Shown piece by piece: positions 18,130 to 62,964 of a stretch of 64,000 bases of DNA. This DNA is from a virus (lineage: Duplodnaviria > Caudoviricetes). A program made the translations under genes and the position numbers. The stretch spans positions 32,001 through 96,000 of IMG/VR virus record IMGVR_UViG_3300028591_000003. One strand, 5' to 3'. The notes beneath the pieces were generated by a model. That model made no database searches. It saw only the letters and a list, made by a program, of their open reading frames with translations, and had not been told where the DNA came from. How positions within the stretch are numbered: the first letter of the stretch is position 1; every line of letters starts with the position of its first letter.

Positions 18130-19656
18130 TTAATTAATTAAATTAGATAAAAAATTCTAATCTAAATTATTTTCACTAATTAAATTCTATAATAAATTCT
18201 CAGACTATTCAGTCATATGTCTTGTATTATGTCCTGTTCCATATTTTGTTCTAACTGGAGTTTTATCAGCTTCTGTTAATCTATCTCCGGTATAGAATCT
18301 TTTACCATAAGGATTATTTACAGTATAATCCCACCAATCTCCATATCTAAGATTTGTTCCATTTTCATCATCAGCAACAAGAGATTGATTTCCCATATAT
18401 CCCATGTTTGGTAATATATAAGCAGTATGATCATCATTCCAATAACCTTCTTTACTATGACTTAAGAAATAATTAGCCATTTCTGAATTAATCCTCTCTC
18501 TTTGTTTAGAATCCTTAATTCTATATGTACTAGCACCTCTAGCTTTTGCAGTAGGAGATTCGTAATCAGGATTAATTTCATAAGTGTCCCACTACTAAGG
18601 TCTACCAGCATACATATTCATTTGATCAAGTCTTGCTCTTATTTCAAATTGATTATTTAAAGGATCACCAATAATTCTAACAGTTCCATTTGGTGCGTTT
18701 CTTGATAAATTACGCCATTCAGCCATACCTTCTGGAGTAGATAAATCAAGTGCTGCCATTCTTTCGACATATTCTCTTCTAGGATCTTTTCCTTTAACTC
18801 CATTAATAAATTTAGAAATTAAAGAACTAGCTTGCAAAGTAGCGGGATCATCAGCAGTTGTTTGTCTTACGTGTCCTTTAGAATCATCACCTGTATAAGG
18901 TTTTAATCCATCTTTTGTCTATATTACATCGCCATAACTATATGGATAAGCATTATCAAAAGATCTTTGAACAACCTTACCAGCAATCCAACCAAGAGGA
19001 GAAGCTTTAACAGCTGTAGTAAATAAATCTTTTCCTCCTTCTTTTATATTTCCACCAAGAAGTTTATCTAAAGACTAATTAAATTCCTCTCCTACTATCG
19101 TACTTCCTTTTCTTTCATCTTCTTTTTTCTAAATAGGCTAATTACTAATTTTCTTCTATCTTCTTCCACTATGATTTTTTATAGCCTATTCAGTCAAAGA
19201 ACCTCTAACTCCATCAACAGCCTATTCGTAAGTTATTTCTCTTCCTTTTTTATCTTTTAATCCTTTATATGCTCCGTTTTTCCATAAATAATCTTGAAGT
19301 ATTGTAATACTATTTGACTTTGGTTTATTATTCAACCTCTAATAAAATATTCTTTGATTATTTAAATTAGATTCTCCTCTATTTAGAGCCTATGTAAAGT
19401 TTTGTTTTCTAGTTGATTTTTTATTTCCGGAAATCCTAATATTTTGTCCAATTTCAATTTTATTAGGATCTTTAATATCAGAATTTAATTTTAATAATTC
19501 CTATAAAGACATTCCGTTAGTCTTTGCTATTTTACCTAAACTGTCTCCTTTTTTTATTGTAACAAATCCTCCACTCTAAAAGAATTTTATGAAATTTTTA
19601 TTTTTAAATCTTTCAATAGGATTTTTATTAACTATTACATTCATATTATTTTTCAT
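18130..19656 (-). CDS. LysM plus peptidoglycan-binding domain protein; TAG=Gln
   Basis: One frame through many TAG joins track fragments 18205-18480 and 18595-18837; LysM TIKKGDSLGKIA...LLKLN..IEIGQNI; PG-binding-like LQDYL...VDGVRGSLT. Confidence 0.82.
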
Positions 19657-19991
19657 TTTAGTATTAAAAATTAAAATTATCTATTTAACAATTAATTTTA
19701 TTACTAAAATATAAAAAATCAAAATTAAATTCCGGTAACTAATTCATCAAGATATTCTCTCCAATATTCATCTTCTATTTCATATTGTTCAGCCAAAAAC
19801 TGTTCGTATTTGTCAAAATCTATTTCTATTTTCATATTATTAAGTTAAAATAAACTAGAGGTTGTCTCTAGTTTAAATACCCTTACCTTTTGCCAGAGAA
19901 GGCAGTACTCTGCGTTTGAATTCTTGTTGACAAACAGCTAACTGTCACCGATCGATTTACAGATTAATCTGAAGGTTGGTCGGACACAACC

Positions 19992-33813: not shown

Positions 33814-34401
33814 TTATAGATTTATTAAACCTTTTTCTAACATTGCATGATGATTAGGGCATAGCCAAACTAAATTATTTTCATTATTTATTTCTTTAAT
33901 TAAAGTGTCTTCTGAAAATTCTAAAATTCCTTTTATATGATGTACTTCAAGTATTTCATCAAATTCATGATTTTTACAATAAGCACAAACTTTTTCTTTA
34001 TCAGATTTTTCTAATATTTTTCTTGCGTTTTTCCTAATTTCTCCACATTTAGTTGTGAGATATTTTTGTCCTGAAATATAATATCCTAAAGTTTTTTCTC
34101 CTATTGTTCCCCTTTTCTTGTTATAACATTCCAAACATATTTCAGAATGTACATCTTTAGGCTTTCCACATATAGGACAAATCTTATTAGGATTTTTTTC
34201 ATGTATATCTGTTCTGCCTTTGTTAAAGGTTTCAGATTCATTAATTATTCTTCTTCGAGGTAATTCAATTCCTAATTTTCTAGCAACTTTTTTAATATTA
34301 CTTCCAGAACAACCATATCTTCTACCTATTTCTTCATAACTGACTTTTTCTATATTTATAAGTCTTTCTAATTCTTCTTTTTCAGAATCCCATTTTGACA
34401 T
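33814..34401 (-). CDS. free-standing HNH endonuclease (HTH + Zn ribbon + HNH)
   Basis: EEIGRRYGCS HTH; CPIC..CLEC; CAYC..EVHH..NLVWLCPNHH. Confidence 0.9.
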   Translation of the reverse strand: MSKWDSEKEELERLINIEKVSYEEIGRRYGCSGSNIKKVARKLGIELPRRRIINESETFNKGRTDIHEKNPNKICPICGKPKDVHSEICLECYNKKRGTIGEKTLGYYISGQKYLTTKCGEIRKNARKILEKSDKEKVCAYCKNHEFDEILEVHHIKGILEFSEDTLIKEINNENNLVWLCPNHHAMLEKGLINL

Positions 34402-34435
34402 ATTTACAAACGAAGGGTTTTTAATCTTCGTACTA

Positions 34436-34466
34436 TAAATATACATTTTGAGTTCGAAAAATCAAA
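34436..34466 (-). promoter_or_regulatory. sigma-A-like promoter for HNH gene
   Basis: TTTG-N19-TATATTTA. Confidence 0.5.
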
Positions 34467-34519: not shown

Positions 34520-35094
34520 TACACCAGGTAGGATTCGAACCTACGACCTACTGCTTCATACTACTCTATGTTGCCATAGCCAAACAATGTCCTATTCTTA
34601 GACGATTAGATTTCCATCCTGCTAGGCATTTCACCACGCATTTTGTTTGTTGTAGTCTGGAATACATTATTACCATATTGAAATCCTTGCAAGTAACTAA
34701 GTCCGTTCATTCCCTTCTCATTTCCATCATTTCTGATTTCTCGGGTGTCTTCTTAGTAATTTCAATTTAGGTATCTCCTCTATACTCTCTACACGTTTAT
34801 AAGAAATAAGTGTCCACTCCTACAACACCTTTCGCTATATAAGCTAATGCTTCCATCATACAATACAATGGTATTTCTTAATTTAGCACGGTATTATCCT
34901 TACACATTATTGATTAGTGTTGTTAATCCTGTACTGATTTAACAGCTTAATGAGCGAATTGTTAACATCATTGCTCACACTCTTAGAAAAAGGACTTCCA
35001 CCGTTTTAGGGAGATTCTACATAGGACTTTCGTGCCCATGCATCCAATTTATTTATAGAAGGCAGTTGCTCTAATCCAGCTGAGCTACTGGTGC
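34520..35094 (-). tRNA. trnR: tRNA-Arg(TCT), exons 35057-35094 and 34520-34556
   Basis: Joined halves give ACTGC-CTTCT|AA-GCAGT. Confidence 0.9.
34557..35056 (-). mobile_element. ORF-less group I intron (500 nt) in tRNA-Arg
   Basis: U|...G| ends; P3 AUCUCC/GGAGAU; P4 ACGGU/ACCGU; homologous to the tRNA-Leu intron. Confidence 0.9.
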
Positions 35095-35733: not shown

Positions 35734-35759
35734 ATATTATAATTATGCCAAAAAAGGAG

Positions 35760-35830
35760 TTGCGGTCGTGTGATTCGAACACCGTTTCAAGGTTATGAGC
35801 CTTGCGAGCTACCATTGCTCCACCACCGCG
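35760..35830 (-). tRNA. trnfM: initiator-type tRNA-fMet(CAT)
   Basis: C1:A72 mismatch; CAAGG-CTCATAA-CCTTG. Confidence 0.8.
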
Positions 35831-36022
35831 ATATTAAAAAAGAATATTTGACATTACATAACGCTCTATGTATTCAATTGTTATGTTCTAAGAGTAATTT
35901 CACTTGTGCACAACTTTATAGTTACTCTCACCGGGTATTATGAGGCTTGATTCGCGAAAAACCCATAACTCTAACGGCAGTCTTTACCTTAGTTAGAGGG
36001 TCTTAAATATTCTTTTATGAGA

Positions 36023-36146
36023 AAGTTACTTAATAAATATTTGCATTAAACCACTATGCTAATCCGCAAACATGGAGCAGATAATGGATTCGAACCACTG
36101 ATACTTTTTTAAGTATAATATTTTTAACTAATATTGTAAGTAACTT
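36023..36146 (-). ncRNA. ACUUACAA-module RNA, circularly permuted tRNA (YrlA-like topology)
   Basis: Module stem, T-arm GGTTCGAATCC, acceptor ATCTGC/GCGGAT closed by a loop, D-arm GCATAGTGGTTTAATGC, closing strand. Confidence 0.82.
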
Positions 36147-36150
36147 ATAG

Positions 36151-36221
36151 TTGGAGATAGAGGAGTCGGACCTCTCTAATCAGGACCAAAATCTGAGGCA
36201 TTACCGCTATGCTAATCTCCA
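36151..36221 (-). tRNA. trnQ: tRNA-Gln(TTG)
   Basis: U1-A72; loop TTTTGGT. Confidence 0.88.
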
Positions 36222-36303
36222 ATTTACTACTACTTTTCATCTCGTGAGTAGCCAACGAGTGTTAAAACAGTTTAAATAGTTTATTAATGTCATCACGACA
36301 TCG

Positions 36304-36884
36304 TACGACAGGCGGGGATCGAACCCGCAAGATCTCTACAGACCTGAGGGATTTTCTTACCACTCTATGTTACCATAGCCAAACAAACACATTTTGTCGT
36401 TTAAAGCCGAGCAAGTTCTTAACTTCCATCTGATTTCACCCTTCAAAGAAGTTAATGCAGGCTTTTGTTTGTTGTGGTCTGGACTGTCTCTTTACCATAT
36501 TGAAATTCTTGCAAGTTCGTGACTTATCTCTATATATTGAGGGTTATCAAAAACCATTTTCTTTTGTCCTTATAAATTTCAACTTAGGTATCTCCCGTTC
36601 AGTCTCTACACGATTATAAGAAAAATATTCCTAAGAATATGGGTTGGGAATCGAACCCAACTTTACGCACCCGTAGGTGCACAGGATACCATTACCTGCC
36701 TACACTTCTTATTTTCGCTCGGTATAGTCCTACACATTATTTGTTAGTGTACAGTATTGGATTAAATTATGCACTGCTTTCACCTCAAGGATTTCCACCG
36801 AATTTAGGAGATTCTACTATGGGATTTCTCGCCATAGCACTCAATTTTCTAAGTCCCTTGTGTACACCATTCCACCACTGTCGC
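36304..36884 (-). tRNA. trnL: tRNA-Leu(TAA), exons 36851-36884 and 36304-36355
   Basis: Joined halves give AGGGA-CTT|AAAA-TCCCT with long variable arm. Confidence 0.9.
36356..36850 (-). mobile_element. ORF-less group I intron (495 nt) in tRNA-Leu anticodon
   Basis: U|...G|; P1 ACUU|A / UGAGU; R element AGAGACUG; S element AAGAGACAGUCC. Confidence 0.92.
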
Positions 36885-38076: not shown

Positions 38077-38209
38077 TCGGGGGACCAGGAATCGAACCTG
38101 GGACTTAGATTTATGAAATCCTTATTTTATTATGCTTTAAGATGTTGTAGGTATCAAAATGATACTAATGCTTTTATTTTCTTACATGTTACCACTACAC
38201 CATCCCCCA
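38077..38209 (-). ncRNA. tRNA scaffold with module in anticodon-arm position
   Basis: GGGGGA/TCCCCC acceptor, D-arm, TAAGA[..GTATC-ATTTT-GATAC-CTACAACA]TCTTA, T-arm CCAGG-TTCGATT-CCTGG. Confidence 0.78.
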
Positions 38210-38218
38210 TATAATAAA

Positions 38219-38350
38219 TCGGAAGGAGAGTTGGACTCGAACCAACAACACTTTGTTTAATAGACAAATACTCTAACCTCTTGAATTTATTAAATTATAA
38301 GTAACTCACGAAATTACTAGAATCAATTTTTATGTTGAGTTATCCGGCCA
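38219..38350 (-). ncRNA. tRNA(ATT)-like scaffold with module in D-loop
   Basis: ACTC..[AGTAATT-TCGTG-AGTTACT-TATAAT]..GGTTAGAGT; TTTGT-CTATTAA-ACAAA; T-arm; degenerate acceptor. Confidence 0.75.
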
Positions 38351-38496
38351 ATTTAATCCAAACTCTGTACAGAAACAGTTTCTTTCTTCATTATAGGTGC
38401 GTGTTATCCTAATTTTTACAGATTCAATGAAACTACCTACGTTTAGTTACATTATATCTGACCGCCAATTTCAATATCGCTGTTAGTTTGGATTAG

Positions 38497-38613
38497 TGGA
38501 GGGAGCAGGAATCGAACCTACATTATAGTCATTTTACGCATGATTAGAAATTTACTATGATTGAATGGTAAGTATCATATGATACTCGTCGTTACCAATA
38601 TTTCAATCCCTCC
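38497..38613 (-). ncRNA. tRNA scaffold with module in D-loop
   Basis: GGAGGGA/TCCCTCC-A; GAAAT[..GG..AGTATC-ATAT-GATACT-TACCAT..]ATTTC; T-arm. Confidence 0.75.
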
Positions 38614-38688
38614 AAATTAAAATTAGTAATCTATCTTCACAGACCAATTACTACTGTCAAACCTTAAAAAACATAACAAATTATGCAG

Positions 38689-39483: not shown

Positions 39484-39604
39484 AAGTTACTTAGTAAAAA
39501 ACGTTGCTCTAAACCAAGCTGAGCTATCCCGAAACCCTCAGGAGTTGGATTTGAACCAACGACACACGGCTTACAAAGCTGATTCTTGATATTGTAAGTA
39601 ACTT
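39484..39604 (-). ncRNA. ACUUACAA-module RNA, circularly permuted tRNA (YrlA-like topology)
   Basis: AAGTTACTT-ACAATA..T-arm GTTGG-TTCAAAT-CCAAC, TCCTGA-loop-TCGGGA, D-arm GCTCAGCTTGGTTTAGAGC..AAGTAACTT. Confidence 0.82.
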
Positions 39605-39661: not shown

Positions 39662-41521
39662 TCAAAGGGTATTTGCTCTCACGAGTTCATACCTATTGCT
39701 TCTATAGAGACTCAACAGTGGAGTATAGACATCAAAGACATCCATATCCTTGAAGTTAGTCAGGAATTGCTCAATCATTGCTGGATTCGAAGGTATGTAC
39801 ATCATGTTGTCAATTCCACTAAATCGGTCTGCTCCAGCACTAGCACGAGAGCCAACAGCACCAGTAACATCCATAAGGATTACGTAAGGACGGAATCCAA
39901 AGAACCCCTCACACTGACGGAAGAAATCGTTCATACTCGCCTCTGGTGAATACATATTATTGAACATACCATCAGACATGATTGTCCATACAGGATAGTT
40001 ACGAAGAGCATCCTTAATCTCAGGATTTGCCTGACAAGCCTGGTTCAATCCCTTAGGAATACATGAAATATCAGTATTCCATCCCTGGAACTTACTTTGA
40101 AGGAAAGCAGAAATCCTCTTGTAATTATCCAGGAAACTAAGTTTAGGATCAACGAATGGTTGTGCCTTAGTCTTAGCTACCTTACTTCTTAAGATTGAGT
40201 TCTGAGATGTAGCCTGAGAATCAATGTAAGAATAGAAACGAGATGTTCCATCAAACATACCAACGAGATTACGAGCATCATCATCGGGATTCTTAACCAT
40301 ACATACTGCAGTAATAAAGGCAGCAAATCTGAATGGTGTACCACTCATAGAACCAGAACTGTCAATAATGGTCAGTGAATTATAAGGAAGATTAACCTTA
40401 TTCATAAAGGACTCAATCTTCAACTTATCAATTGTGCCACTAAGAATCTGGTTGTAGAGTTCAGTAAAGTTAGTAGCACCAATTGTTACCTTGGCCTCTT
40501 TCTTCACTTTCTCCAATTTAACCTTATCCTCCTCACTAGCCTGACCTTGACGAACCTTCTCTTCCAGAATACGTTGTTCTTGTTGCTTCTGCTCCTTATA
40601 AGTTTCCCATTCCTTGATCCAAGGCTGGAACTTAGCCCACTTAGATACTTCTGCAATAGCTACATTAGACTTTCCATCCAATCCAGCTGTCTCACAGTCT
40701 GCACCTACTACCTTGGAATAGAGGATTCTGTTCTTAACCCTGAACCTAGCCTGAGATGGGAGCTTGTCAAACCAGTCGATGAATTGCTGCTTGTCAAACT
40801 CATTTATCTTGCCAGTAGAGAAAAGTACAGATTCAAGAGAGCCATTGTACTGCTTTCGCCACTCACGATAACCCTTAAAATATTCCAGTTCCCATCCCAT
40901 CATCTTAGAGAGTTCAGTTAAGAAGTTCTTTTTCTCATTCATTACCTGAATAGTCTCAGGAAGAACTCTCTTATGACCTTGACGCTTACTGGTTCTTGGG
41001 ATAGTCAAGAACTTGGCAATCAATGTCTTATTGAACGGATTAGAACCGTTAATCACAGCATATGTATAGTCAAGAAGAGCCTTCACATACTCTTTATCTT
41101 GAAATGCATGATATATTTTCAGTACCTTCGAACCCTTAGTTTGAACTCGATTACGGAACAAAACATCAAAGCATGTATACTCATTAAAGAGTTGTGCATT
41201 TAAAAACTTGATGAATTGTTTCTTATCTTTTTTCCAAAGCCAGGTTGTGATAGTATAGAAAGCCTCACGATTGGCATTACCACCACTGTCAACCTTCTTC
41301 TTTTTAAAGATGTTGTGCTGACGATTAGTAATGTCTCCAATAGAGAACAGGATTGAGAAGAAAAGTTCTCTCTTTTCTTTAGAGTTCTTTACTTCAAGCC
41401 ATGCATCATTCAGAAGAACCTCTGAAATAACTGCATCAGTTGATGCCTGCTGAAGTTGCAGACATCTGCGAAGTCCGTAAAACGGATTGTTACTTTTTTT
41501 ATTAAGTTCTACTTGTACCAT
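39662..41521 (-). CDS. DUF2828/TROVE(Ro60)-like helical domain plus vWA domain protein
   Basis: MIDAS IIDSSGSM...NTD...MSDGMF; N-terminal pattern AW...LF...DI...GG...RE.F, AKF...PR, KLPSQA recognised by eye as DUF2828-like. Confidence 0.75.
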   Translation of the reverse strand: MVQVELNKKSNNPFYGLRRCLQLQQASTDAVISEVLLNDAWLEVKNSKEKRELFFSILFSIGDITNRQHNIFKKKKVDSGGNANREAFYTITTWLWKKDKKQFIKFLNAQLFNEYTCFDVLFRNRVQTKGSKVLKIYHAFQDKEYVKALLDYTYAVINGSNPFNKTLIAKFLTIPRTSKRQGHKRVLPETIQVMNEKKNFLTELSKMMGWELEYFKGYREWRKQYNGSLESVLFSTGKINEFDKQQFIDWFDKLPSQARFRVKNRILYSKVVGADCETAGLDGKSNVAIAEVSKWAKFQPWIKEWETYKEQKQQEQRILEEKVRQGQASEEDKVKLEKVKKEAKVTIGATNFTELYNQILSGTIDKLKIESFMNKVNLPYNSLTIIDSSGSMSGTPFRFAAFITAVCMVKNPDDDARNLVGMFDGTSRFYSYIDSQATSQNSILRSKVAKTKAQPFVDPKLSFLDNYKRISAFLQSKFQGWNTDISCIPKGLNQACQANPEIKDALRNYPVWTIMSDGMFNNMYSPEASMNDFFRQCEGFFGFRPYVILMDVTGAVGSRASAGADRFSGIDNMMYIPSNPAMIEQFLTNFKDMDVFDVYTPLLSLYRSNRYELVRANTL

Positions 41522-52700: not shown

Positions 52701-52776
52701 TGGGGCGTAGTCGAGCGGCTTCAGACTGGAGACTCTAAATCTCTGCATTACGCGGGTTCGAATCCTGCCACCCCAA
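52701..52776 (+). tRNA. amber suppressor tRNA(CTA), probably Gln-accepting
   Basis: GGAGA-CTCTAAA-TCTCT; U1-A72, G2-C71, G3-C70 as in tRNA-Gln. Confidence 0.92.
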
Positions 52777-52793
52777 CTAGACGTAAATGAATT

Positions 52794-60070: not shown

Positions 60071-60622
60071 ATGAATTTAAATGTTTTTGATTATGATTAG
60101 AGAACTGGAAAAGTAATTCTCAATTCAGCGGATCTTGCTCTTATTGATGAATTTAAAACAATCATTAAAAGAGATAAAGATCGTGCTGATAGAGAATTTA
60201 CTTATATATATTTAGCAATTGATTGGAAATCTCCTTATAATGGATATTCAGAACAAGAGAGACATGAAGCAGCATTACAAGATGCTCATATTACTGAAGA
60301 AGAATGGAATGATCCTTCTTTTAGAGCAGCTTGTAGAAAATACAGAGCATTACAAGAGTCTAATCGTTACGTAAGACTTCTTAAATCTGCTGAATTGGTA
60401 ACTGATAAAATTATCGATTATTTTAATAATGTAGATTTAGAAGAACGTGATGAACAAACTGGTAAATATGTTAATAAAGTAGCTGATATACAAAAAGCTA
60501 TGGAAAACGCTTCTAAACAAATAGAAACATTAAAAATGATAGAATCTCTTGTTAAGAAAGAAATTGCTGAACAAAGTCAGATTCGTGCTGGAGCTACAGA
60601 AGGATTTGTTCCTGATTTTTAA
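60071..60622 (+). CDS. protein upstream of terminase (possible small subunit); TAG=Gln
   Basis: 183 aa through one TAG; stop overlaps the terL start. Confidence 0.7.
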
Positions 60623-62964
60623 TGGAAGAACAAATTAAAAAGAAAAGAGGTAGACCTCGTAAAAATCCTATTCTCCCTGAAGAAATTTAGTCTTTAGTAA
60701 ATGAAGTTCAAGAAAAAAGTTAGTAGCTCCAAAAAGAAACAATAGTTAAAGAAGAAATTCGTTCTAAAGAAGGCGAATGGGATGTTAAAATAAATGATTC
60801 TATTGAATATTTTGATAAAAGATTATCTTATGAAATAACAGGCTATAGACCTATTACAGAAACACAAGGATTAGATTTTGATCCAAGTTGGTTTACTGAA
60901 GCTAGAGATAATAAAATAAAAACTGGACATTATACATCTTATTATTTTGGTTCAAAAGCATATAGAGATTTTTGGAATCAAGAATATAAAAGATGTAGAG
61001 AAGGAATGACAGTTAACGGATATACAATTCCTGGAACATATTATTATTTTCTTAATTATTATCAATTGCCTCAGACTGAAGTTAAAAAACTTGGTACTAG
61101 TCGTTCTGATATATTTCCAGAGTTCTATACTGCTCAATATGAGTTTTTTCATTATTTTGAATTATGTAAAATACTTAAAAAAGATGTTTGTATGTTTAAA
61201 TCTAGAGGTATAGGTTTTAGTGAGATAAATGCTGCTATTTGTGATTAGATTTATAACTGTTATCCTAATTCAGTATGTATGATTTCAGCATTTGCTTAGA
61301 ATTATGTTGATAAATCTCTTGATAAAGTATGGGGAGGTCTTACATTTGCAAATGATAATACAGATGGAGGATTCTTTAAACTTCGACAAGTACTTGACAA
61401 ACAAATGATTAAGAAAGCTTCTTATTATAAAATAGTAAATGGACAAAAAATTGAAGATGGATGGATGTCTATGATTGAAGCAATTGTTGCTGATAATGAT
61501 AGAAAAATTCGTGGTGATCGTGTAGATTTATTAGTATATGAAGAAGCTGGATCTAATCCTGTTTTAAGAAAATCTTATATTAAAGGTAATGCTCTAGTAG
61601 AAATTGGAGGTAACAGGTTTGGTATTAGAGTCGTTGGCGGTACTGGTGGTGATGTTGATGGGCTTGAAGGATTATCTGATATGTTTTATAATCCAGAATC
61701 TTACAACATTTTACCCTTTCTTAATAACTATACTGAAGATGGAGAATGGGTAAAAACTGCATTTTTTATTCCAGCTAATATTGCTTTCTATAGAGATGGT
61801 TATGTAGACAAAAGAGGAGTTTGCGATATAAAGAAAACTACAGAATTTTATATGAATGAAAGAGCTAAACTTGAAGCTACTCCAAAAGCTTTAGTAGACT
61901 ATAAAGCAGAATATTGTCTATATCCATCTGAAGCATTTGCTCTTGAAGGACAAAACAATTTTAATAAAGTAAAATTAGTAGAACAAATATCTGCAATTAA
62001 GTTTAAAAAAGCAATTGTTCCAAATATCGAAAGAGGATATATGGAATTTGTATATAGTGATCCAAATCACAAAAGAGATAGTATTAAAGGAGTCAGATTT
62101 AAGCCACATCCGAATGGACCTGTTTATATATTGCAACATCCTCTTTGGGAAATCCCAACAGGATAGGATATAGAACCTGGTGAAACAGATGAAGAATATT
62201 CTTACAGAAAATCATCAGAAGAACAAGTAGCTTATAGTAAAATGAATAATTTGTATGTAGCAGGAATAGACGGAATTGATTTAGGATAGGAAGATACTTC
62301 TGATTATACTAAAAATCCATCTAAATTTTGTACTGTTATTAAAAGAAGAGTTCATGGAATGAAAGAGCCTATGTATGTAGCATATTATTTAGATAGACCT
62401 TAGCGAATAGAAGAAGCTTATGAGTAGACTCTAGCATTAATGTATTATTATAATGCTAAAGGAAATATAGAAGCGTCTAAAGTCGGAGTTTTAACTTGGG
62501 CTAAAAAAGAAAAATGGATTAATTACTTTATGCGAAGACCAAGAGTATGTTCCGGTGATCCAGCTAAAAGACCTTCTGGTAATGCACCTTATGGAACAAC
62601 GACTGCTGTTGCTATGATATAGCATGGACTAGATTTAATAGCTTCATATATAGAAGAATATTTTCATAATATATGGTTTTTAGATATGCTAAATTAGTTT
62701 CTTAAATATTCTTACGAGAATAAAGGAAAGTTCGATATTGTAGCAGCTTGTTAGATGGCTGAAATTGCAGATGAAGAACTATCTGAATTAGTTCCAGTAT
62801 AGGTTAAAGAAGCTAAACGAAAATTTTAGGATATTGGATATTATAAAGATAAAAATGGATATACTCGTTTTGGAATAATTCCAAGATAGGAAGAATAGAA
62901 AATTCAAGTTAAATGGGATAATTCTGATGGAGGAAATAGAAATAGTAATCCTGAATATAGATGA
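60622..62964 (+). CDS. terL: terminase large subunit; TAG=Gln
   Basis: 780 aa through about 16 TAG; KSRGIGFS, LLVYEEAG, GGTGG, YVAGIDGID. Confidence 0.92.

What the first reader, a model, noticed from the sequence alone, without database searches (positions are those of the whole stretch)
36023..36146. Circularly permuted tRNA-like RNA with a vestigial CCA inside the closed acceptor loop
Seen: order is module, T-arm, acceptor 3' strand ATCTGC followed by TCCA, linker TGTTT, acceptor 5' strand GCGGAT, D-arm, module. This is YrlA topology. The internal NCCA suggests origin from tandem or circularised tRNA, and cleavage in the loop could expose a chargeable end (inference).
Basis: partly seen in the sequence, partly recalled or inferred. 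Interest (0 to 1): 0.8.

Follow-up and report, generated by a model that had tools for sequence, protein, structure and literature searches.

The report
Phage Y-like RNA mimicking tRNA
This is a real, conserved gene for a small phage RNA shaped like a back-to-front tRNA with a closed acceptor stem, most likely the partner RNA of a neighbouring Ro60-like protein, and its internal CCA recurs far too often among relatives to be chance.

Summary
The order is clamp helix, T-arm, acceptor 3' strand, U-CCA-UGUUU loop, acceptor 5' strand, D-arm, clamp helix.

- **Conservation:** 27 distinct relatives keep the fold. 97% of cells are paired, 14 pairs show compensatory changes, and 0 of 500 shuffles do as well.
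- **YrlA topology:** it has the YrlA order. However, it does not match the Rfam YrlA model and lacks YrlA's Rsr-binding motif.
- **Clamp ("handle"):** this is a covarying helix followed by UACAA, shared by about a dozen tRNA-like RNAs. They lie in a row downstream of a 619-aa gene.
- **The 619-aa protein:** I show it is a divergent DUF2828/DUF7788 protein (hhalign 99%). Its best structural matches are Ro60/Rsr.
- **CCA:** it is not a passive relic of a phage tRNA junction. These phages' ordinary tRNA genes almost never encode CCA (3 of 518). Yet CCA ends the acceptor 3' strand in 14 of 27 orthologues and 11 of 41 paralogues, usually followed by a U-run.
- **Loop cleavage:** cleavage by RNase P has a published precedent (M. 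smegmatis YrlA) but is untested here.

This scan has flagged the same system before, in this genome and in others. Verdict: a new variant of a known kind.

The parts
36023..36146 (-). Whole element (E1): ~125-nt tRNA-shaped RNA gene in permuted (YrlA-like) order
   Evidence: Sequence. 27 orthologues with covariation.
36138..36146 (-). Clamp ('handle') helix, 5' arm AAGUUACUU
   Evidence: Pairs with 36023-36031: 98.8% paired, one UA->CG compensatory change in 3 orthologues. Across all loci, 357 of 622 motif occurrences have the matching partner, against 28 for mismatched partners.
36123..36137 (-). Conserved unpaired tail ACAAUAUUAGUUAAA. Its first bases, with the last U of the helix, form the family-wide UACAA motif.
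   Evidence: A10, C11, A12 and A13 are invariant in A2. The motif [AT]TACTTAYAA is enriched on this strand between 33.5 and 41.5 kb.
36117..36122 (-). Anticodon-stem-like helix, strand AAUAUU (takes the place of tRNA positions 39-43)
   Evidence: Pairs with 36036-36041. Five of six pairs show changes on both sides (AAUAUU <-> AUUAAU types), 84% paired. RNAalifold does not predict this helix.
36101..36116 (-). Hairpin AUACUU-AAAA-AAGUAU in the variable-arm position. Its invariant core UACU/AGUA is the same as the core of the clamp helix.
   Evidence: 100% paired; UA<->AU swap in 9 orthologues; loop length varies from 4 to 8.
36083..36099 (-). T-arm AGUGG-UUCGAAU-CCAUU
   Evidence: 100% paired; 3 of 5 pairs have compensatory changes; loop UUCRAAU is invariant.
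36077..36082 (-). Acceptor-like stem, 3' strand AUCUGC
   Evidence: Pairs with 36062-36067. 4 of 7 alignment pairs have compensatory changes.
36068..36076 (-). Closing loop U-CCA-UGUUU (CCA at 36073-36075)
   Evidence: CCA is in register in 14 of 27 orthologues. The last loop base is U in 23 of 27.
36062..36067 (-). Acceptor-like stem, 5' strand GCGGAU, followed by U8 A9 (36060-36061)
36043..36059 (-). D-arm GCAU-AGUGGUUUA-AUGC
   Evidence: Invariant in all 27 orthologues. Close to the D-arm of the adjacent tRNA-Gln.
36036..36041 (-). Anticodon-stem-like helix, strand AAUAUU (takes the place of tRNA positions 27-31). No anticodon loop follows.
36023..36031 (-). Clamp helix, 3' arm AAGUAACUU
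36150..36221 (-). Upstream tRNA-Gln(UUG), ending 3 nt before the element. Its 3' processing would set the element's 5' end.
   Evidence: ARAGORN and Rfam. An upstream tRNA lies 3-5 nt away in 19 of 27 orthologues.
39662..41521 (-). 619-aa gene for a divergent DUF2828/DUF7788 (Ro60-like, helical repeat + vWA/MIDAS) protein: the proposed partner
   Evidence: The clamp motif lies within 70 nt upstream of the start in 30 of 36 related loci.
39484..39604 (-). Paralogue E2. Same clamp, permuted tRNA-Thr(UGU)-like body broken in the anticodon stem, GGU loop with no CCA.
   Evidence: RF02553 match at 39 bits, E 1e-7.

Best explanation
The element is a gene for a ~125-nt non-coding RNA made from the phage's tRNA-array transcript. 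It is released by the tRNA end-processing enzymes that cut its neighbours.

It folds into a tRNA-like L shape: T-arm, D-arm, acceptor-like stem and an extra hairpin in the variable-arm position. The acceptor stem is closed by a loop. The anticodon stem, instead of ending in a loop, runs out into a 9-bp clamp helix formed by the RNA's two ends, followed by unpaired UACAA.

The RNA cannot decode. It is one of about a dozen RNAs with this same clamp encoded downstream of a Ro60-like (DUF2828/DUF7788) protein gene. The clamp is most likely that protein's docking site, so the particle would be a phage counterpart of Rsr/YrlA that presents a tRNA look-alike.

What is shown:
- the fold and its conservation;
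- the clamp helix covariation;
- the gene-array linkage;
- the protein's family.

What is inferred:
- that the RNA is transcribed and released;
- that the protein binds it;
- that in CCA-bearing copies such as this one the loop is cut by RNase P and trimmed to a CCA end.
For: **Fold**
- 97% of cells paired, 14 compensatory pairs, 0 of 500 shuffles as good.
- RNAalifold recovers the clamp, hairpin, T, acceptor and D helices.
- No anticodon loop is present.

**Clamp helix**
- It covaries in at least four versions: GUUAC/GUAAC, GAUAC/GUAUC, GCUAC/GUAGC, GACAC/GUGUC.
- 357 of 622 motif occurrences have their own matching partner, against a mean of 28 for partners of another version.

**Linkage to the gene**
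- In 36 related loci, 177 paired clamps lie downstream on the gene's strand, against 6 upstream and 4 on the other strand.
- The motif precedes the gene's start in 30 of 36 loci.
- 8 of the 11 element-bearing loci with at least about 3.2 kb held upstream carry the gene, on the same strand, 1.8-8.6 kb upstream.

**Protein**
- MIDAS motif DxSxS.
- The Foldseek top 10 are all Ro60/Rsr over the full length, E 5e-5 to 3e-3.
- VIA-align's top two are Rsr (Z 10.4) and Ro60 (Z 10.0).
- A profile of distant family members hits DUF2828+DUF7788 proteins at E 7e-19.
- hhalign gives 99.2% probability over 420 columns, including the N-terminal part.
- Language-model neighbours of the N-terminal domain are DUF2828 and TROVE clusters.

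**Same pairing elsewhere**
- A DUF2828/DUF7788 gene on another phage-like contig has a YrlA-model match (45 bits) 330 nt downstream.

**Release as a discrete RNA**
- An upstream tRNA ends 3-5 nt before the element in 19 of 27 orthologues. A downstream tRNA starts 2-3 nt after it in 5.

**Loop cleavage**
- Most orthologues have a 7-bp acceptor stem.
- U precedes the 5' strand in 23 of 27, and CCA plus a U-run is present in 14 of 27.
- Precedent: M. smegmatis YrlA (PMC4201824).
Against: - There is no transcript, binding or processing data of any kind.
- Pfam TROVE, DUF2828 and DUF7788 models do not hit the phage protein directly.
- The N-terminal domain folded alone matches only generic helical repeats. 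Kinship with Ro60 proper, as opposed to DUF2828, therefore rests on fold and language-model similarity.
- The element gets no RF02553 match and lacks the YrlA motif.
- The clamp's 5' arm ends in TACAAT, a -10-like hexamer, so a DNA-level role is not excluded.
- This copy has only 6 standard acceptor pairs. In the published case, 7 pairs were thought necessary for RNase P cutting.
- 13 of 27 orthologues have no CCA, and some have 4-5-nt loops that look hard to cut.
Confidence: 0.6

Rival explanations
1. The tRNA mimic is real, but the 'clamp' is mainly a DNA-level expression cassette: a phage promoter ending in TAYAAT plus a matching downstream signal. On this view the RNA works without the neighbouring protein, for example as a decoy for host enzymes or defence nucleases that act on tRNA.
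For: - The conserved block GWTACTTAYAAT contains a -10-like hexamer. It also precedes ordinary tRNAs and two ORFs.
- Transcription starting about 7 nt after it would begin close to the tRNA-like body in several paralogues (read).
- The consensus scan picks a weak promoter-like site inside the element.
- No protein binding has been shown.
Against: - The two arms covary in at least four versions. That points to base pairing, not to a fixed protein-recognition sequence.
- The element starts 3-5 nt after a tRNA in 19 of 27 cases, so the 5' arm would be transcribed by read-through.
- Promoter-like sites are no more frequent than in shuffled sequence: 2 found against 2.2 expected.
- The array is strictly polar and lies downstream of one gene.
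Confidence: 0.2
2. It is a true circularly permuted tRNA gene. Its transcript would be rejoined at the open end and opened at the acceptor loop, or used as a two-piece molecule, to give a chargeable tRNA that works in translation.
For: - The L-shape elements are complete.
- NCCA followed by a U-run, with U before the 5' strand, looks like a bacterial pre-tRNA junction.
- Paralogues keep intact anticodon loops, for example UUUGUAA in E2 and in the L005 type.
Against: - This element has no anticodon loop in any of 27 orthologues.
- The base before CCA is not conserved.
- Some related copies have lost the anticodon arm altogether.
- The phage has no RtcB and no CCA-adding enzyme.
- The phage already has a full set of ordinary tRNAs.
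Confidence: 0.07
3. It is a decaying by-product of tandem tRNA duplication and rearrangement, with no function of its own.
For: - It lies inside a tRNA array.
- Its 5' half resembles the neighbouring tRNA-Gln.
- CCA is patchy among relatives.
Against: - All six helices are kept through compensatory changes across 27 distinct sequences from many samples.
- The tertiary-contact bases are invariant.
- The neighbouring tRNA genes encode no CCA to be left over.
Confidence: 0.03

Closest known systems
YrlA (Y RNA-like A; Rfam RF02553) bound by Rsr/Ro60 in bacteria and some phages (Chen et al. 2014, PMC4201824)
   Same: - Same strand order: the ends pair, then T-arm, loop-closed acceptor stem, D-arm.
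- tRNA tertiary-contact bases are kept.
- It is encoded near a Ro60-type protein gene on the same strand.
- In M. smegmatis the acceptor loop is cut by RNase P and the 5' half ends in CCA.
   Different: - No match to RF02553 for this element.
- No GNCGAAN0-1G motif. The end helix plus UACAA is a different, covarying 'clamp'.
- An extra hairpin sits in the variable-arm position.
- The partner protein is not recognised by Pfam TROVE and belongs to DUF2828/DUF7788.
- About a dozen RNAs with different tRNA-like bodies share one clamp.
- CCA is encoded in the loop, not added afterwards.
Circularly permuted tRNA genes of Cyanidioschyzon merolae and some algae and archaea
   Same: The 3' half of the tRNA lies before the 5' half, joined through the acceptor ends by a short linker.
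   Different: - Those genes yield decoding tRNAs through a bulge-helix-bulge cut, circularisation and end processing.
- This element has no anticodon loop and no bulge-helix-bulge motif.
- The phage has no splicing endonuclease or RtcB ligase.
- This comparison rests on my own knowledge of that literature. The library search found only reviews.
Small stable RNAs of the phage T4 tRNA operon (species 1 and 2, rnaC and rnaD)
   Same: Non-tRNA RNAs encoded between phage tRNA genes and released by tRNA processing; function unknown.
   Different: No known permuted tRNA fold, clamp motif or protein partner. This comparison is from my own knowledge and was not tested here.

Membership tests
YrlA (Rfam RF02553) | tRNA-like domain in the order T-arm, loop-closed acceptor stem, D-arm, enclosed by pairing of the RNA's 5' and 3' parts | tested here: met
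   Sequence, covariation, and comparison with the model's structure line.
YrlA (Rfam RF02553) | Match to the family covariance model at the gathering score (69 bits) | tested here: not met
   No match at E <= 10 for 35800-36500 or in the whole-genome search. Paralogue E2 scores 39 bits, below the cut-off.
YrlA (Rfam RF02553) | Conserved Rsr-binding motif GNCGAAN0-1G in the 5' strand of the end helix (PMC4201824) | tested here: not met
   The 5' part reads AAGUUACUUACAAUAUUA. No GNCGAA occurs outside the T-loop.
YrlA (Rfam RF02553) | Encoded next to a gene for a TROVE-domain Ro60 orthologue | tested here: inconclusive
   - No Pfam TROVE hit in the phage.
- A 619-aa gene 3.5 kb upstream on the same strand has Ro60/Rsr as its best structural matches.
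- That protein is homologous to DUF2828/DUF7788.
- Its N-terminal domain alone gives only generic helical-repeat matches.
YrlA (Rfam RF02553) | Bound by Rsr/Ro60 in vivo | not testable with these tools
   Needs immunoprecipitation or a gel-shift assay.
Transfer RNA (RF00005), including permuted tRNA genes | Anticodon stem closed by a 7-nt loop with an anticodon | tested here: not met
   The anticodon-like stem opens into the clamp in all 27 orthologues. ARAGORN makes no call. Rfam tRNA scores 14.4 bits for a fragment.
Transfer RNA (RF00005), including permuted tRNA genes | Free 5' and 3' acceptor ends, with a conserved discriminator for charging | tested here: inconclusive
   The ends are joined by a 4-12-nt loop. 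CCA is present in 14 of 27 orthologues, but the preceding base varies among A, U, G and C. Whether the loop is cleaved is untested.
DUF2828/DUF7788 proteins (Pfam PF11443 + PF25043), for the partner protein | Homology over both domains | tested here: met
   - A profile of distant family members hits three PF11443+PF25043 proteins at E 7e-19 to 1e-13.
- hhalign gives 99.2% probability over 420 columns, query 56-611.
- The Pfam models themselves give no direct hit on the phage protein.

The most novel reading that the evidence does not exclude
The loop-embedded N-CCA followed by a U-run and a U before the 5' strand is a selected, built-in maturation site, not a relic. RNase P and 3' trimming would convert the closed mimic into a two-piece, CCA-ended tRNA look-alike held together by its clamp on a Ro60-like protein. 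The phage would use it as bait or a sponge for host factors that act on tRNA 3' ends, for example defence toxins that modify or extend the CCA end. Copies with short CCA-less loops would stay closed.
Probability: 0.2. Interest if true: 0.85.

Novelty: new variant of a known kind. Interest (0 to 1): 0.6.

Why it matters
Bacterial Y RNAs that mimic tRNA are known, but what the tRNA-like part is for remains open. Here a large group of uncultured phages carries whole arrays of such mimics. They share one new docking helix and lie next to an uncharacterised Ro60-like protein family (DUF2828/DUF7788) that has no homologue in about 50,000 deposited phage genomes.

The CCA result adds a specific, testable point. 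Phages whose real tRNA genes never encode CCA write CCA into the closed acceptor loop of their mimics again and again. This suggests the mimic's 3'-end look, or its cleavage, is what selection acts on. It gives DUF2828 proteins a candidate RNA ligand, and gives the field a natural series of variants (with or without CCA, with or without an anticodon arm) to test what tRNA mimicry by Y RNAs does.

Tried and rejected
- **Permuted, decodable tRNA (my first reading, 55%): dropped.** All orthologues lack an anticodon loop, and related copies have lost the anticodon arm.
- **Exact 39-nt search in viral contigs:** found nothing. A degenerate pattern was needed.
- **GenBank phages:** blastn found only tRNA-level similarity to Lak phages. 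tblastn with the protein found nothing.
- **Sequence searches on the 619-aa protein:** Pfam, PHROGs and PDB all gave nothing. The profile against PDB gave only a weak vWA hit.
- **Direct Pfam model searches of the genome (TROVE, DUF2828, DUF7788):** no hit.
- **N-terminal domain folded alone:** no Ro60-specific match, only HEAT/PUF/MIF4G-type repeats with Z <= 7.1.
- **TROVE proteins from 'relatives' for a profile-profile test:** not possible for a virus record.
- **RtcB and CCA-adding enzyme:** absent from the phage.
- **Literature:** searches for permuted tRNA in phages, YrlA in phages, Ro60 in crAss phages and DUF2828 found nothing describing this system.
- **Tree of the 27 orthologues:** too weakly resolved (1 starred branch) to tell repeated gain of CCA from repeated loss.

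Full report
**Context.** The window is bases 32001-96000 of a complete 176,443-bp virus record with direct terminal repeats.
- It carries 24 ordinary tRNA genes, nearly all on the minus strand.
- One is a CUA-anticodon suppressor. Long late ORFs open only if TAG is read as sense.
- The finding lies between tRNA-Gln (36150-36221) and tRNA-Met (35759-35830), so it must be read on the minus strand.

**Observation.** On the minus strand, 36146->36023 reads:
- AAGUUACUU (clamp 5' arm)
- ACAAUAUUAGUUAAA
- AAUAUU
- AUACUU-AAAA-AAGUAU, then C
- AGUGG-UUCGAAU-CCAUU (T-arm)
- AUCUGC (acceptor 3' strand)
- U-CCA-UGUUU (loop)
- GCGGAU (acceptor 5' strand), then UA
- GCAU-AGUGGUUUA-AUGC (D-arm), then A
- AAUAUU, UAUU
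- AAGUAACUU (clamp 3' arm)

ARAGORN and Rfam call no tRNA, and no Rfam family matches at E <= 10.

**Conservation and structure.** A degenerate pattern search of viral contigs and one of metagenome contigs gave 27 distinct orthologues. They were aligned as A2.
- I wrote out six helices and counted them. Cells paired: 97.0%, against 35-47% when partners are slid.
- 14 of 37 pairs change on both sides, in 46 cells. No shuffle out of 500 reaches any measure.
- Compensatory changes occur in the T stem (3 of 5 pairs), the acceptor stem (4 of 7), the anticodon-like stem (5 of 6), the extra hairpin and the clamp.
- The D-arm never varies, so it says nothing either way.
- RNAalifold, run independently, returns five of the six helices. 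It misses only the all-A/U anticodon-like stem.
- U8, A14, G15 with C48, G18G19, the UUCRAAU loop and A58 are invariant or nearly so. A D/T elbow is therefore expected; this is inferred from tRNA knowledge.
- None of the 27 has an anticodon loop. The anticodon-like stem opens into 15 unpaired bases on one side, 3-5 on the other, and then the clamp.

**The element is one of a family.**
- The motif [A/U]UACUUAYAA recurs on the minus strand between 33.5 and 41.5 kb of the window. It is usually paired with a downstream complement.
- Some clamps enclose AT-rich sequence. One encloses the ordinary tRNA-Asn. Others enclose tRNA-like bodies.
- A scanner for 'T-arm, acceptor 3', loop, acceptor 5', D-arm' found a second permuted element in the window: E2, 39604->39484. 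It has a Thr-like UUUGUAA anticodon loop and the break inside the anticodon stem.
- The scanner also found dozens of such elements in related contigs. Their break is in the anticodon loop, the anticodon stem or the variable region, or the anticodon arm is missing.
- The clamp helix covaries in several versions (GUUAC/GUAAC, GAUAC/GUAUC, GCUAC/GUAGC, GACAC/GUGUC and others). 357 of 622 motif occurrences have their own partner within 240 nt. Partners of a different version are found only 28 times on average, 41 at most.
- This speaks for base pairing. It weakens the rival that the block is only a promoter, although the block does end in a -10-like TAYAAT.

**Link to a protein.**
- The 619-aa ORF at 39662-41521 (minus strand) has no Pfam, PHROG or PDB sequence match. 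It does have a large metagenomic family with a DxSxS MIDAS motif.
- Its AlphaFold model (pLDDT 72.8) has Ro60 and Rsr as all ten best Foldseek matches, aligned over the full length, E 5e-5 to 3e-3.
- VIA-align ranks Rsr (Z 10.4, 241 residues, rmsd 4.5) and human Ro60 (Z 10.0) first. They stand only slightly above plain vWA domains at Z about 9.
- The N-terminal 375 residues folded alone match only generic helical repeats.
- An exhaustive profile search found 177 family representatives. The distant ones carry weak Pfam vWA hits.
- A profile of those distant members hits three proteins annotated DUF2828 + DUF7788 at E 7e-19 to 1e-13.
- hhalign gives 99.2% probability over 420 columns, covering both domains.
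- Language-model neighbours of the N-terminal domain are DUF2828 and TROVE clusters, one of which carries both labels.
- My reading: the protein is a divergent DUF2828/DUF7788 member with Ro60-like architecture. Kinship with Ro60 itself is likely but not proven.

**Genomic association.**
- In 36 related loci, 177 paired clamps lie downstream on the gene's strand. Only 6 lie upstream and 4 on the other strand.
- The clamp motif lies within 70 nt of the gene's start in 30 of 36 loci.
- 8 of the 11 element-bearing loci with at least about 3.2 kb held upstream carry the gene, on the same strand, 1.8-8.6 kb upstream. In one of these only the last 38 residues reach the locus.
- Outside this group, a DUF2828/DUF7788 gene on a phage-like contig has a YrlA-model match (45 bits) 330 nt downstream. 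A bacterial one has a tRNA with a 56-nt insert 85 nt upstream.

**The CCA.**
- The CCA is not specific to this copy. Counting from the T stem, 9 of 27 orthologues have a 7-nt strand, then N, then CCA. Another 5, including this copy, have CCA one base earlier.
- Chance at a fixed place is about 0.8%.
- CCA-bearing loops are longer (7-12 nt) and continue with a U-run. The last loop base is U in 23 of 27.
- Among other clamp-flanked permuted elements, 9 of 41 have NCCA and 2 have CCA one base early. These fall in several unrelated body types.
- By contrast, ordinary tRNA genes almost never encode CCA: none convincingly among the phage's own 24, and 3 of 518 distinct tRNAs in all fetched loci.
- The CCA therefore cannot be the leftover of a junction between two such genes.
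- On a weakly resolved tree the trait changes state at least 8 times. Several CCA-less loops (GACA, AUCA, GCAU) look like mutated NCCA.
- The constraint is therefore real but loose, and I cannot tell gains from losses.
- The base before CCA varies, which argues against a synthetase identity set.
- Chen et al. (PMC4201824) showed that M. smegmatis YrlA has a 7-bp acceptor stem, is cut by RNase P in vivo and in vitro, and its 5' half then ends in CCA. Both halves remain bound to Rsr.
- The same fate is a reasonable inference for the CCA-bearing copies here. This copy, however, has 6 pairs plus U.U, and the phage has no CCA-adding enzyme or RtcB of its own.

**Release as a discrete RNA.** The element begins 3-5 nt after an upstream tRNA in 19 of 27 orthologues (Gln in 17). 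A downstream tRNA starts 2-3 nt after it in 5. No terminator-like site is nearby, and promoter-like sites are at shuffle level. Co-transcription with the tRNAs and release by RNase Z and RNase P is the simplest reading; this is inferred.

**Comparison with YrlA.**
- The topology is the same.
- Membership fails on the covariance model and on the GNCGAAN0-1G motif (PMC4201824).
- It is inconclusive on the TROVE partner.
- The body is closest to the neighbouring tRNA-Gln, especially the D-arm, which suggests local origin from a tRNA gene.
- The extra hairpin has the same invariant UACU/AGUA core as the clamp. It may be a second, closed copy of the docking helix; this is an untested inference.

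**Earlier notes of this scan.**
- Notes on this genome and on others describe the same clamp-tagged tRNA mimics next to a Ro60-like gene. The system has therefore been found before by the scan.
- Those notes changed my reading from 'processed tRNA' to 'Y-like RNA'.
- I then tested the protein, the clamp covariation and the linkage myself.

**Verdict.** This is a real gene for a tRNA-mimicking, Y-like RNA and a new variant of a known kind. The mechanism (protein docking on the clamp, loop cleavage to a CCA end) is inferred, not shown.

Noticed in passing
window 34520-35094 (-) and 36304-36884 (-): Two tRNA genes that ARAGORN does not call: tRNA-Arg(UCU)-like and a class II tRNA-Leu-like. Each is split by a ~500-nt insert in the anticodon loop. 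The two inserts share their ends (GUUUGGCUAUGGYAACAUAGAGURGUA), like ORF-less group I introns. Rfam's intron model did not reach threshold. An HNH endonuclease ORF (33814-34446) lies next to one of them.
   Followed up: no
window 35831-36022 (-): The 192-nt spacer between the element and tRNA-Met folds with a 12-bp end-to-end helix (AAAAGAAUAUUU/AAAUAUUCUUUU), z = -2.45. Its start (AUAAAAGAAUAUU...CCCUCUAACUAAGG) is conserved in several orthologous contigs. It is probably another small structured RNA.
   Followed up: partly
window 39484-39604 (-): Paralogue E2. It has the same clamp and a permuted tRNA-Thr(UGU)-like body whose break lies between positions 29 and 30 of the anticodon stem. The acceptor stem is closed by GGU only. 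It is the only element of the genome that matches the Rfam YrlA model well (39 bits, E 1e-7).
   Followed up: partly
window 38080-38620 (-): tRNA-like bodies with the clamp arms in the reverse order (AGUAUC-loop-GAUACYUAC) inserted inside the cloverleaf. Examples: GGAGGGA...UCCCUCC and UGGGGGA...UCCCCCG acceptor pairs separated by about 100 nt.
   Followed up: no
window 52701-52777 (+) and long ORFs such as 18130-19722 and 60622-62964: A suppressor tRNA with anticodon CUA. Late-gene-sized ORFs open only when TAG is read as an amino acid (up to 17 in-frame TAG). The 619-aa gene and other early genes use the standard code.
   Followed up: partly
L091:7600-8010 and L092:5802-5917: Near DUF2828/DUF7788 genes of an unrelated phage-like contig and of a bacterium (between pyrH and tsf), the nearby tRNA-like RNAs carry a helix followed by ACAGCAA. 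This may be the counterpart of the UACAA tail here.
   Followed up: no
window 36101-36116 (-): The variable-arm hairpin of the element has the same invariant core (UACU/AGUA) as the clamp helix, as if a second, closed copy of the docking helix were built into the tRNA-like body.
   Followed up: no
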